Positions 33,463 to 35,166 of a DNA stretch of 64,000 bases are shown in pieces. How positions within the stretch are numbered: position 1 is the stretch's first letter; each line of letters begins with the position of its first letter. Both the position numbers and the translations under genes were made by a program. The notes under the pieces are model-generated. The model searched no databases. It saw only the letters and a list, made by a program, of their open reading frames with translations, and was not told the origin of the DNA. Origin of the DNA: an uncultured Alphaproteobacteria bacterium (GTDB lineage Bacteria > Pseudomonadota > Alphaproteobacteria > RF32 > CAG-239); contig CALXUM010000011.1 of the NCBI GenBank assembly GCA_944391685.1, forward strand, positions 4,919-68,918, given 5' to 3'.

Positions 33463-35166
33463 GTGATCTGTGTTTTTAGAAAAATATTAGTAATGTCCTT
33501 TGTTGTTTTGGTCTATAATCAATTTTTGTGCCATTCGTCGTTTGCCCAAGTTAATCAGCAAATGATGGACGCTAGTGCAGAACAGGCTCAAGGTAATTAT
33601 GCTCCAATGGATTTGGGGTATGCTGGCTTTAATTCTTTAGGAATGACGCAAGCAGCATGGCTCGATCCTTTGCAAAATCTTGGTGAGGGACAAAGTCGTC
33701 CGGCGTATTCAAAATATTATTGGTCGCCGGATTTGGTTCTGCCTGTTCGTCTGCGAGAAGGCATGATTACTATGATAAATTTTCCTGATTGGGAAATGGT
33801 TGAAGATATTTTTATAGGAGATAATGCTACTTTTGATGGTCAAATAGCAAGTCCTAATTCGTTGCTTTTATATCCTCGCAAAGGAGCTAACGTTGGTGTC
33901 GATACCAATGTAATAGTTTTTGGTCGTTCTGGTAATCGTTATGTCTTTTATGTGAAAAGTGAAGCCGTTAATACAGAACGTTTAACAAACTCCATTATAG
34001 ATATAGAAGTTATAGGAGATCAGAGAGATCAAAAGGGTGCCGTAATAGGTAATTTAGGCGGTGGAGGAAGTGTCTTAGGAGCTCATACTGGAGGAGCCGG
34101 TAGTTCTGGAGGAAAATCGGTTTCGTCTAATTATACTCGTCGTTTTCAAGATAGTGATTGGCTAAAATCAATTCCGGTAGATCCTTCTAAATTTAGATTT
34201 GATTTGGAAGTATATGTTCCTAATCCTGATGATGTAGTTATTGCTCCGGAACGAGTTTGGCGAGACGATATTTTTACTTATATAGACCTAGGCAAAAAAG
34301 CCCTCAATATGATGCAGCGCCCTGTTGTTAGTATGATTGTTGAAAGGATAGAAGTTCCTGTCGGCTTTCGAACTAAAGGACCGGACAACCGCCTAATTAT
34401 TGTTGAAGGGGTCGGAGATCTTGTTTTACGTAACGGTAAAAGGATTGTTTGTATAAAGTTGCGTCGTTCAGATGCTTCAGGTCTAGAGCATTCTATAGAT
34501 TCTGCAGATTATTTGCCTCCTACATGGGAGGTTCCTGCACCGTATCCTGCAAAACAAGGACAAAGTACTCCTGCAGGGATTCCATACTCTTCATCTTCTC
34601 AATCCGGCAATAATACAGTTAATCAAGGTATGCCCTCGTATGGTGCAGCAGGAACAAAAGGAAAAGTAAATACTGGAGCAATTGATACATTCGGACAATA
34701 TGATATTCAAGTTGGACAAAGTCAACTTATAGTCCCTCAATATGCAAACAACAATGGATTGCAGATATCTTCTGGTGAAGGATATGGGGTTGCAGGTAAT
34801 TTTGATTATTCAAAAATGCAACGTATTAATGTAAATCCTGAAAATTCAACAATATTTAATCCTTATGCCCAACAATATGGTTATGGTACAGGTTTCGCAG
34901 ACGACAATTCAAACATATCAATTGAATTGGGAACGGATAGCGATGTAAATAATCTGGAAAAATTATGGGATATTCTTTCTGAAAAATATAGTGCTGATTT
35001 AGGTCGCTATGAACCGTTTTTCTCAGTTGATGCTCCAGCTGATGGGCAAGGAAAAGAATTATTCCACCTTAGAGTTGGTCCGGTAAAGACCCTTGAGGAA
35101 GGAGACAAAACATGTAGTATGTTGGGAAGAAATGGTATTTTTTGCAGCGTTGTAAGGACGCAATAA
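33463..35166 (+). CDS. virB9: VirB9 with a long C-terminal extension ending in a SPOR-like domain
   Basis: It has a GTG start and a signal peptide ending SFAQ. VirB9 N-domain motifs are VLPVRLREGMITMINFP and NRYVFYVKSE. The C-domain motif is APERVWRDDIFTYIDLGK. A Gly/Ser/Gln-rich linker follows, then the SPOR-like last 83 aa (nt 34915-35163). Confidence 0.8.
   Translation: MICVFRKILVMSFVVLVYNQFLCHSSFAQVNQQMMDASAEQAQGNYAPMDLGYAGFNSLGMTQAAWLDPLQNLGEGQSRPAYSKYYWSPDLVLPVRLREGMITMINFPDWEMVEDIFIGDNATFDGQIASPNSLLLYPRKGANVGVDTNVIVFGRSGNRYVFYVKSEAVNTERLTNSIIDIEVIGDQRDQKGAVIGNLGGGGSVLGAHTGGAGSSGGKSVSSNYTRRFQDSDWLKSIPVDPSKFRFDLEVYVPNPDDVVIAPERVWRDDIFTYIDLGKKALNMMQRPVVSMIVERIEVPVGFRTKGPDNRLIIVEGVGDLVLRNGKRIVCIKLRRSDASGLEHSIDSADYLPPTWEVPAPYPAKQGQSTPAGIPYSSSSQSGNNTVNQGMPSYGAAGTKGKVNTGAIDTFGQYDIQVGQSQLIVPQYANNNGLQISSGEGYGVAGNFDYSKMQRINVNPENSTIFNPYAQQYGYGTGFADDNSNISIELGTDSDVNNLEKLWDILSEKYSADLGRYEPFFSVDAPADGQGKELFHLRVGPVKTLEEGDKTCSMLGRNGIFCSVVRTQ

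What the first reader, a model, noticed from the sequence alone, without database searches (positions are those of the whole stretch)
34915..35163. VirB9 carries a C-terminal SPOR-like peptidoglycan-binding domain
After the two VirB9 domains and a Gly/Ser/Gln-rich linker of about 150 aa, the last 83 residues follow the SPOR beta-alpha-beta-beta repeat pattern: ISIELGTDSDVNNLEKLWDILSEKY...FFSVD...GKELFHLRVGPVKTLEEGDKTCSMLGRNGIFCSVV. The C...C pair is what I associate with alphaproteobacterial SPOR domains. SPOR domains bind denuded glycan strands. On an outer-membrane-complex subunit, the domain would tether the T4SS core to the sacculus, or target it to sites of amidase activity such as the septum or poles. 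I do not know of VirB9-SPOR fusions.
Basis: partly seen in the sequence, partly recalled or inferred. Interest (0 to 1): 0.6.

Follow-up and report, generated by a model that had tools for sequence, protein, structure and literature searches.

The report
VirB9 secretion subunit with SPOR tail
The outer-membrane ring protein (VirB9) of a type IV secretion machine in an uncultured gut alphaproteobacterium ends in a cell-wall-binding-type SPOR domain on a long flexible tether; this conserved fusion was not described in any paper I could search, and its key sugar-contacting glutamine is naturally a glutamate.

Summary
Window 34915-35163 encodes the last 83 residues of a 567-aa VirB9. Profile and fold searches both identify this tail as a SPOR domain.
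- Pfam SPOR scores 24 bits against a cut-off of 21.
- 35 of 36 family members match SPOR on their own.
- hhalign against free-standing alphaproteobacterial SPOR domains gives probability 99.6%.
- The AlphaFold model (pLDDT 88) has the strand-helix-strand-strand-helix-strand order, and its top three PDB matches are the RlpA and CwlC SPOR domains.

A ~135-residue Gly/Ser/Gln/Asn-rich tether, predicted disordered, joins the tail to the VirB9 C-terminal domain.

The fusion is fixed in 196 of 201 genomes of the organism's order. It also occurs in other small-genome alphaproteobacterial families and, in a more divergent form, on two Sphingomonadales megaplasmids.

One thing differs from classical SPOR domains. 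The one highly conserved glycan-contacting Gln (RlpA Q270, FtsN Q251) is Glu in 35 of 36 family members. The same Q251E change weakens denuded-glycan binding in E. coli FtsN.

My best reading is a multivalent, low-affinity or specificity-shifted peptidoglycan tether or positioner for the outer-membrane core (0.55). The main rival is a protein-binding role for a repurposed SPOR fold (0.27).

I rate it a new variant of known kinds, of moderate interest.

The parts
33463..35166 (+). virB9-SPOR gene (567 aa plus stop). GTG start, 9 nt after an AAGGTGGAG Shine-Dalgarno-like motif.
   Evidence: PF03524 CagX 51.6 bits; lies between virB8 and the virB10-like genes
33463..33546 (+). Sec-type signal peptide (residues 1-28, ...HSSFA|QV); places the whole protein in the periplasm
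   Evidence: read from the sequence; predicted helix 2-25; poorly conserved in sequence, as signal peptides are. No signal-peptide predictor was run.
33709..34497 (+). VirB9 proper: N-terminal domain (residues 83-183), Gly-rich internal linker (184-232), C-terminal O-layer domain (233-345)
   Evidence: Pfam CagX match to residues 83-332; 88-92% mean identity to relatives in the two domains
34498..34902 (+). Tether: residues 346-480, rich in G/S/Q/N/Y/P, predicted disordered
   Evidence: pLDDT < 50; 41% mean identity; length 67-155 aa among 60 relatives
34903..35163 (+). SPOR domain (residues 481-567), the alphaproteobacterial subtype with a conserved Trp and a Cys pair
   Evidence: Pfam PF05036; AlphaFold pLDDT 88; Foldseek matches to RlpA and CwlC SPOR domains; hhalign probability 99.6%
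34924..34926 (+). GAA codon for Glu488, at the position of the canonical glycan-contacting Gln of SPOR domains
   Evidence: role of the Gln from PMC6895207; effect of Q251E
35113..35115 (+). Cys551 (helix 2), first of the invariant Cys pair; the disulfide is inferred
35143..35145 (+). Cys561 (start of strand 4), second of the invariant Cys pair
32497..32712 (+). Context: small lipoprotein (lipobox LLSGC) between the two virB8 genes; candidate VirB7 partner of the VirB9 C-terminal domain
   Evidence: by position and lipobox only
35175..43149 (+). Context: two genes rich in beta-flower repeats. The second ends in a TrbI/VirB10 domain. They follow virB9-SPOR in every distant locus checked.

Best explanation
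Residues 481-567 are a genuine SPOR-family domain. It is exported with VirB9 and hangs from the O-layer (C-terminal) domain of VirB9 on a ~135-residue disordered tether. VirB9 is a multi-copy ring subunit (14 copies in canonical systems; assumed here, not shown). Each machine would therefore carry a crown of tethered SPOR modules just under the outer membrane, within reach of the peptidoglycan layer. I propose that these modules bind peptidoglycan glycan strands on their conserved beta-sheet face. Each bond would be weak but the whole would be multivalent. This would fasten or position the outer-membrane core complex in the sacculus around the hole it occupies. The canonical Gln is Glu, next to an invariant Arg537 and a His/Arg535. 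Each single contact is therefore probably weaker than, or differs in preference from, the FtsN/RlpA type of denuded-glycan binding. Shown here: domain identity, fold, fusion, conservation, distribution and the Gln-to-Glu change. Inferred: periplasmic location, the disulfide, copy number, peptidoglycan binding and the anchoring role.
For: SPOR identity:
- Pfam PF05036 scores 23.8-24.2 bits on the isolated tail (cut-off 21) and 23.1 bits in a six-frame scan of the organism's own genome.
- 35 of 36 diverse family tails match SPOR on their own, best E 4.8e-8.
- phmmer of the tail against 1.84 billion representatives finds, after the VirB9 family itself, free-standing proteins down to E 3e-8; 43 of 47 of them are Pfam SPOR proteins.
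- hhalign against 75 such domains gives probability 99.6%, E 7e-25.
- The AlphaFold model has pLDDT 88. Its top PDB matches are the RlpA SPOR domain with bound glycan (6i09, TM 0.69/0.79, rmsd 2.2 A), 6i05 and CwlC 1x60. There is a clear gap to other ferredoxin-like folds, which score TM <= 0.49.

Selection: the tail is 82% identical across 60 relatives against 41% for the tether. It is present in 196 of 201 genomes and 22 of 22 genera of the order.

Ligand face: the strand residues E488, S521, D523, H/R535, R537 and R565 are conserved, and R537 is invariant. R537 corresponds to the Arg patch that binds the MurNAc lactyl carboxylate in RlpA.

Substrate supply: the genome encodes one Amidase_3 enzyme and three ordinary SPOR proteins, so denuded glycan should exist.

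Precedent: peptidoglycan-binding (OmpA-like) subunits DotK and Dis1 sit in the Dot/Icm outer-membrane core (PMC9302130).
Against: - The only highly conserved glycan-contacting side chain of SPOR domains, the Gln, is Glu in 35 of 36 family members. In FtsN the Q251E change reduces denuded-glycan binding and roughly halves septal localisation.
- Several family-specific invariant residues (L498, E499, G547, D548) lie at the starts of the two helices, on the face that does not bind glycan in RlpA. This hints at a second, protein-binding surface.
- Sequence-profile searches of PDB chains found no SPOR entry.
- In the context of the whole protein, Pfam scores the domain at 19 bits, below the cut-off of 21.
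Confidence: 0.55

Rival explanations
1. Repurposed SPOR fold. The domain descends from a SPOR domain but no longer binds peptidoglycan. It instead binds a protein: another part of this unusual machine (the VirB7-like lipoprotein, the giant beta-flower VirB10, or conserved motifs in its own tether), or neighbouring SPOR tails, closing a peripheral ring.
For: The natural Gln-to-Glu change matches the FtsN Q251E lesion that weakens glycan binding. The same study reports SPOR-SPOR self-interaction that does not depend on glycan binding. Family-specific invariant residues sit on the helical face (L498, E499, G547, D548) and at the conserved C-terminal ...VVRTQ end. The fusion always travels with the giant beta-flower VirB10 genes (10 of 10 distant loci). 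The tether carries conserved motifs.
Against: The Arg patch (R537, H/R535) and the sheet-face residues stay conserved as in glycan-binding SPOR domains. Glu at the key position also occurs in 8 of 76 free-standing alphaproteobacterial SPOR domains, so it is not special to secretion proteins. One VirB9 tail keeps Gln. Q251E in FtsN reduces binding but does not abolish it.
Confidence: 0.27
2. Address label. The SPOR tail works, as a classical septal-targeting module. It would capture VirB9 at amidase-processed septal glycan, so that machines are built at the division site and inherited at new poles.
For: This is what all characterised SPOR domains do (PMC6895207). The genome has an Amidase_3 enzyme.
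Against: The Gln-to-Glu change predicts weakened septal recruitment. No localisation data exist, and nothing in the sequence separates targeting from general anchoring.
Confidence: 0.12
3. Chance resemblance. The tail is a generic ferredoxin-like alpha/beta domain unrelated to SPOR.
For: Pfam scores are only 19-24 bits. PDB sequence searches find nothing. The strand-helix-strand-strand-helix-strand order is a common fold, and many unrelated proteins appear lower in the Foldseek list.
Against: hhalign E 7e-25. phmmer hits to SPOR proteins at E 3e-8 in a library of 1.84 billion. The conserved Trp, the LRxGP motif and the Cys pair are shared with 71-76 of 76 free-standing SPOR domains. The top three fold matches are all SPOR domains, with TM-scores well above the rest.
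Confidence: 0.03

Closest known systems
SPOR domains of division and wall-remodelling proteins (P. aeruginosa RlpA, PDB 6i05/6i09; E. coli FtsN, DamX, DedD; B. subtilis CwlC, PDB 1x60; Pfam PF05036)
   Same: Same fold and strand/helix order. Pfam match above the cut-off on the isolated domain. LRxGP motif with a conserved Arg on strand 3. Extracytoplasmic location. C-terminal position on a long low-complexity linker, as in FtsN and DamX.
   Different: It is attached to a secretion-machine ring subunit, not to a division or wall enzyme. The hallmark Gln is Glu in 35 of 36 members. The domain has its own invariant residues on the helices and a fixed ...VVRTQ C-terminus.
Free-standing alphaproteobacterial SPOR proteins with one to three SPOR repeats (for example P0153-P0202, and the 333-aa SPOR protein in this genome, locus L002)
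   Same: These are the closest sequence relatives. They share the conserved Trp in helix 1 (93%), the Cys pair (100%) and the LRxGP motif. This is probably the subfamily from which the tail was recruited.
   Different: They carry Gln at the key position in 78% of domains and Glu in 11%. None has a VirB9 part.
Canonical VirB9/TrbG/TraO/CagX outer-membrane core subunits of type IVA secretion systems
   Same: CagX domain. Gene position after virB8 and before virB10-virB11. A small lipoprotein gene lies nearby.
   Different: It is a divergent member: the TIGR02781 VirB9 equivalog scores 35 bits against a cut-off of 217.7. It has an extra conserved N-terminal lead, a Gly-rich internal insert, and the tether plus SPOR tail. 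In a class-wide sample, 45 of 62 VirB9-bearing genomes showed no strong match to the tail profile (E <= 1e-8).
Peptidoglycan-binding accessory subunits of other envelope machines, for example DotK and Dis1 (OmpA-like) in the Legionella Dot/Icm outer-membrane core
   Same: A wall-binding module placed at the periphery of a secretion system's outer-membrane core (PMC9302130).
   Different: Those are separate lipoproteins with OmpA-like domains, which bind peptide-bearing peptidoglycan. Here the module is a SPOR domain, which reads glycan strands, and it is fused to the core ring subunit itself.
VirB9 proteins of Sphingomonadales megaplasmids (Sphingosinicella sp. BN140058 p1; Erythrobacter aureus YH-07 plasmid)
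   Same: 34-36% identical in the VirB9 part. They also end in a SPOR-like tail with the LRVGP motif and the Cys pair, scoring 25-28 bits against a profile of free alphaproteobacterial SPOR domains.
   Different: The tether is shorter (proteins of 430-432 aa). Asp, not Glu, sits at the Gln position. Pfam's SPOR model does not score them. They are plasmid-borne in cultured free-living bacteria.

Membership tests
SPOR domain (Pfam PF05036) | Match to the family profile above the curated cut-off (21 bits) | tested here: met
   23.8 and 24.2 bits on the isolated tail. 23.1 bits in the six-frame scan of the organism's own genome. 35 of 36 relatives match at E <= 0.01. Caveat: 19 bits when the whole 567-aa protein is scored.
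SPOR domain (Pfam PF05036) | [quoted passage not shown] | tested here: met
   AlphaFold model with pLDDT 88 and pTM 0.75. Foldseek top matches: RlpA SPOR 6i09/6i05 (TM 0.67-0.79) and CwlC 1x60; DedD at rank 19. This is a predicted model, not an experimental structure.
SPOR domain (Pfam PF05036) | Highly conserved Gln on strand 1 that hydrogen-bonds the MurNAc lactyl and GlcNAc N-acetyl groups (RlpA Q270, FtsN Q251, DamX Q351) | tested here: not met
   The aligned residue is Glu488. It is Glu in 35 of 36 VirB9 tails, against Gln in 59 of 76 free-standing relatives. This is the most conserved residue rather than a formal membership criterion: 11% of free-standing relatives also have Glu.
SPOR domain (Pfam PF05036) | Basic patch on the sheet that receives the lactyl carboxylate (RlpA R302/R309/R311; FtsN R285) | tested here: inconclusive
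   R537 is invariant. Position 535 is His in this clade and Arg in distant members. R565 is conserved. The correspondence comes from sequence alignment only; I could not inspect model coordinates.
SPOR domain (Pfam PF05036) | Binds peptide-free (denuded) glycan strands and localises to septa | not testable with these tools
   Needs sacculus pull-down, ITC and fluorescent-fusion experiments.
SPOR domain (Pfam PF05036) | Located outside the cytoplasm | tested here: met
   N-terminal hydrophobic signal sequence ending SFA|QV. It is part of VirB9, a periplasmic/outer-membrane subunit by established knowledge. No signal-peptide predictor was available.
VirB9 / TrbG / CagX (PF03524) | Match to the CagX profile above its cut-off | tested here: met
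   51.6 bits against 34.2, residues 83-332.
VirB9 / TrbG / CagX (PF03524) | NCBIfam VirB9 equivalog TIGR02781 above its cut-off | tested here: not met
   35 bits against 217.7. It belongs to the superfamily but is not a close equivalent of Agrobacterium VirB9.
VirB9 / TrbG / CagX (PF03524) | Gene order virB8 - virB9 - virB10 - virB11 within a type IV secretion cluster | tested here: met
   VirB8 twice (31597-32421, 32713-33456), a TrbI domain in 38584-43149, VirB11 at 43161-44129, VirB4 at 21115-23547, and VirB2 pilins at 15319 and 15818.

The most novel reading that the evidence does not exclude
VirB9-attached SPOR tails may form a distinct acidic SPOR subclass. They carry Glu in the gut lineages and Asp on the Sphingomonadales plasmids, in place of the glycan-reading Gln and next to an invariant Arg. 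This subclass would read a wall feature that classical SPOR domains do not, for example de-N-acetylated or otherwise modified glycan, or strand ends left by the enzyme that opens the wall for the machine. It would thereby dictate where a core, chromosomally fixed type IV secretion system is built, across whole orders of uncultured gut bacteria.
Probability: 0.2. Interest if true: 0.75.

Novelty: new variant of a known kind. Interest (0 to 1): 0.5.

Why it matters
How large envelope-spanning machines are fixed in, and placed on, the peptidoglycan layer is known for only a few systems. Here a glycan-strand reader is fused directly to the core ring subunit of a type IV secretion system. It is kept in nearly every genome of an abundant but uncultured order of gut alphaproteobacteria, so the link between machine and wall is evidently important to them. 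The fusion yields a simple, testable hypothesis for placement or anchoring of the secretion system. It also offers a natural experiment on SPOR specificity, because these domains carry the Gln-to-Glu change that cripples FtsN binding in E. coli. Related tails on plasmids of cultured Erythrobacter and Sphingosinicella strains make bench tests possible.

Tried and rejected
- phmmer of the tail and hmmsearch of the family profile against all PDB chain sequences found no SPOR entry. SPOR domains are too divergent for that route; the fold search succeeded instead.
- The full-length AlphaFold model was poor outside the tail (mean pLDDT 46). I did not use it for the VirB9 part or for tail-to-core geometry.
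The single-protein scan gave only close relatives.
- tblastn of the whole protein against plasmids aligned only the VirB9 part. I first read this as "no plasmid fusion". Local profile searches then showed SPOR-like tails on two of them, so I withdrew that reading.
- Pfam does not score those plasmid tails. The Microvirga tail looks SPOR-like by eye but matched no profile, so it stays unassigned.
- Duncan et al. 2013 (PMC3837948) is not held. I took the Q251E effect from a later preprint.
- I considered a mis-assembly or a fusion of two genes. I rejected both, because 196 of 201 genomes keep a single uninterrupted frame.
- I could not inspect model coordinates, so the Cys551-Cys561 distance and the side on which each strand residue lies are not checked.
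Full report
**What is there.** The window is a 30-38% G+C stretch of a 1.57-Mb, 25-contig genome estimated 100% complete. Record titles of close relatives identify them as uncultured gut Alphaproteobacteria: "Proteobacteria bacterium CAG:495", "uncultured Azospirillum sp." and many human, ruminant and rabbit gut MAGs.

The ORF at 33463..35166 (+) encodes 567 aa. Its GTG start lies 9 nt after an AAGGTGGAG motif. It sits in a type IV secretion cluster containing:
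- VirB2-like pilins and VirB4;
- several coiled-coil proteins;
- two VirB8 genes;
- this gene;
- two genes rich in beta-flower repeats, the second ending in a TrbI/VirB10 domain;
- VirB11.

A 71-aa lipoprotein with lipobox LLSGC lies between the two virB8 genes.

**Checking the observation.** Residues 83-332 match CagX/VirB9 at 51.6 bits against a cut-off of 34.2. The region between the VirB9 C-terminal domain and the tail (residues 346-480) is rich in G/S/Q/N/Y/P. It is 41% identical among 60 relatives, against 82-92% for the folded parts. It varies from 67 to 155 residues and is predicted disordered.

**Is the tail a SPOR domain?** Four independent lines say yes.
1. *Pfam.* SPOR (PF05036) scores 23.8-24.2 bits on the isolated tail against a cut-off of 21. 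It scores 23.1 bits in a six-frame scan of the whole genome, alongside three ordinary SPOR proteins. In the context of the whole protein the score is 19 bits, just under the cut-off. This probably explains why only 1 of the 120 closest public clusters carries a precomputed SPOR label. When 36 diverse tails are scanned one by one, 35 match SPOR, best E 4.8e-8.
2. *Exhaustive sequence search.* phmmer of the tail against 1.84 billion representative proteins returned 80 hits. The best ~30 are VirB9 tails. The rest, down to E 3e-8, are free-standing proteins with one to three repeats. Of those, 43 of 47 are Pfam SPOR proteins, up to E 2.5e-34.
3. *Profile-profile comparison.* Local hhalign of the VirB9-tail alignment against 75 of these free-standing domains gives probability 99.6% and E 6.9e-25 over 87 columns.
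4. *Fold.* An AlphaFold model of the tail built from the family alignment has pLDDT 88 and the order strand-helix-strand-strand-helix-strand. Foldseek against the PDB ranks the P. aeruginosa RlpA SPOR domain first and second (6i09 with bound denuded glycan, then 6i05; TM 0.67-0.79, rmsd 2.2-2.4 A). B. subtilis CwlC (1x60) is third and DedD is at rank 19. Unrelated ferredoxin-like folds follow at TM <= 0.49.

Sequence-only searches of PDB chains found nothing. That fits the known <20% pairwise identity among SPOR domains (PMC6895207).

**Which kind of SPOR domain.** The tail belongs to an alphaproteobacterial subtype. Three features mark it:
- a Trp in helix 1, in 97% of tails and 93% of free-standing relatives;
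- an LRxGP motif at the end of strand 3;
- a Cys in helix 2 paired with a Cys at the start of strand 4, in 100% of both sets.

A disulfide in the periplasm is a reasonable inference, but I could not measure the distance in the model.

**The departure from the classical domain.** Only one glycan-contacting side chain is highly conserved across SPOR domains. It is the strand-1 Gln (RlpA Q270, FtsN Q251, DamX Q351). Its amide hydrogen-bonds the MurNAc lactyl group and the GlcNAc N-acetyl carbonyl (PMC6895207). Three alignments place Glu488 (codon GAA, 34924-34926) at that position:
- against a canonical SPOR protein of the same genome (VQLI aligned with IELG);
- against 76 free-standing domains;
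- by hhalign.

The residue is Glu in 35 of 36 VirB9 tails and Gln in one. In free-standing relatives it is Gln in 78% and Glu in 11%. The engineered Q251E change in E. coli FtsN reduces denuded-glycan binding and roughly halves septal localisation of the isolated domain. The same study reports SPOR-SPOR self-interaction that does not depend on glycan binding (bioRxiv 10.1101/2024.05.13.594014).

Other sheet residues remain conserved. R537 is invariant, and by alignment it belongs to the Arg patch that receives the lactyl carboxylate in RlpA. Position 535 is His in this clade and Arg in distant members. S521, D523 and R565 are conserved within the VirB9 family. The family also has its own invariant residues at the starts of both helices (L498, E499, G547, D548) and a fixed C-terminal ...VVRTQ. 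The helical face plays no part in glycan binding in RlpA or FtsN.

**Distribution.**
- *Own order.* The tail profile hits 196 of 201 sampled genomes and 22 of 22 genera, always in one open frame of roughly 470-700 codes for VirB9-sized proteins, apart from a few cut by contig ends.
- *Class sample of 301 genomes.* 62 carry a VirB9. Of these, 17 (including G000 and one genome of its genus) carry the fusion, in at least ten other families. All have small genomes of 0.9-2.5 Mb.
- *Distant loci.* All ten checked have a VirB9 N-terminal part homologous to this one (E 1e-112 to 1e-140). Nine of the ten show a beta-flower repeat gene immediately downstream.
- *Second lineage.* A large lineage with ~0.9-Mb genomes has a more divergent version, and about 20 of its 120 closest clusters already carry both Pfam labels.
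- *Phylum sample of 401 genomes.* Nothing was found outside the class.
- *Sister clade.* A related VirB9 clade has Pro/Gly-rich tails without a SPOR domain.
- *Plasmids.* tblastn aligned only the VirB9 part. Reading the two closest plasmid genes (Sphingosinicella sp. BN140058 p1 and an Erythrobacter aureus YH-07 plasmid; 430 and 432 aa) showed C-terminal SPOR-like domains with LRVGP and the Cys pair. They score 25-28 bits against the profile of free alphaproteobacterial SPOR domains and carry Asp at the Gln position (YMVDLG, YEVDLG). Pfam's model does not score them.

An acidic residue at this position therefore recurs in two distant VirB9-SPOR clades.

**How it most likely works.** VirB9 is exported (signal peptide). 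By established knowledge of type IVA systems, its C-terminal domain forms the O-layer under the outer membrane in multiple copies. A ~135-residue disordered tether would let each tail reach the peptidoglycan layer. The genome has an Amidase_3 enzyme, so peptide-free glycan should be available. No lytic transglycosylase gene lies in the window; the three SLT matches are on other contigs.

- I favour (0.55) multivalent attachment of the core complex to glycan strands. Each bond would be weaker than, or different in preference from, the classical type because of Glu488. Many copies per machine would compensate for weak single contacts.
- The main rival (0.27) is that the fold has been repurposed for protein contacts, within the machine or between tails. 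The Q-to-E change, the conserved helical face, the reported SPOR self-interaction, and the strict co-occurrence with the giant VirB10 all point that way.
- Chance resemblance is effectively excluded (0.03).

**Comparison with what is known.** The fusion combines two well-known parts. Peptidoglycan-binding accessory subunits in secretion cores have precedent, namely the OmpA-like DotK and Dis1 in Dot/Icm (PMC9302130). I found no paper combining VirB9 with SPOR, SPOR with type IV secretion in this sense, or this bacterial order with type IV secretion. I therefore rate it a new variant of known kinds.

Earlier notes of this scan on other genomes describe the same fusion and the same acidic substitution. 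They are unchecked AI notes and I do not count them as evidence. One of them prompted the plasmid check that changed my reading.

**Limits.** There are no experimental data. The structure is predicted. Copy number, the disulfide and the periplasmic reach are inferred.

Noticed in passing
window 34690-34743, 34795-34827 and 34879-34899: The otherwise variable tether holds conserved motifs within this clade: GQYDIQVGQSQLIVPQY (residues 410-427, predicted as a small beta-hairpin), NFDYSKMQRI (445-455; D448, S450, K451 and M452 invariant), and YGYG.GF (Y474, G475 and G477 invariant). They are absent from the most distant family members. They could be contact sites rather than mere spacer.
   Followed up: partly
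window 33547-33708: A strongly conserved ~54-residue lead (89% identity among 60 relatives) precedes the CagX domain. It has no Pfam match and seems particular to this VirB9 clade.
   Followed up: no
window 32497-32712: A 71-aa lipoprotein (lipobox LLSGC) lies between the two virB8 genes. It is a candidate VirB7, but only by position and lipobox.
   Followed up: partly
window 35142-43149; loci L091-L100: The two genes after virB9 are full of beta-flower repeats (PF21785 at 226 and 202 bits), and the second ends in a TrbI/VirB10 domain. A similar repeat gene follows virB9-SPOR in nine of the ten distant loci checked (not seen in L100), so the SPOR tail and the giant VirB10 largely travel together.
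   Followed up: partly
L107 1495-2787; L108 1411-2709; L109 1246-2898: Plasmid VirB9 proteins of the cultured Sphingosinicella sp. BN140058 and Erythrobacter aureus YH-07 end in SPOR-like tails with Asp at the Gln position. Pfam does not score them. The 550-aa Microvirga sp. VF16 VirB9 has a Pro/Ala-rich tether and a C-terminal stretch with a Trp and a Cys pair that matched no profile.
   Followed up: partly
L101, L102, L103, L105: A sister clade of long VirB9 proteins (about 430-540 aa) in other small-genome alphaproteobacteria has Pro/Gly/Ser-rich C-terminal tails without any SPOR domain.
   Followed up: partly
L106 (G276:C4) and proteins P0209-P0328: A second, very large lineage with ~0.9-Mb genomes carries a more divergent VirB9-SPOR (about 510 aa, Glu retained). 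About 20 of its 120 closest clusters already have both PF03524 and PF05036 precomputed, so the architecture is visible in public annotation but goes unremarked.
   Followed up: partly
whole genome G000; window as a whole: No SLT-type lytic transglycosylase (the usual VirB1 role) lies in the window; the three SLT matches are on other contigs. The genome has one Amidase_3 gene and three canonical SPOR proteins.
   Followed up: partly
protein P0132: In one public 176-aa protein the SPOR tail breaks off after ...TLEEG and continues into unrelated sequence. It is probably an assembly chimera or a rearranged copy.
   Followed up: no
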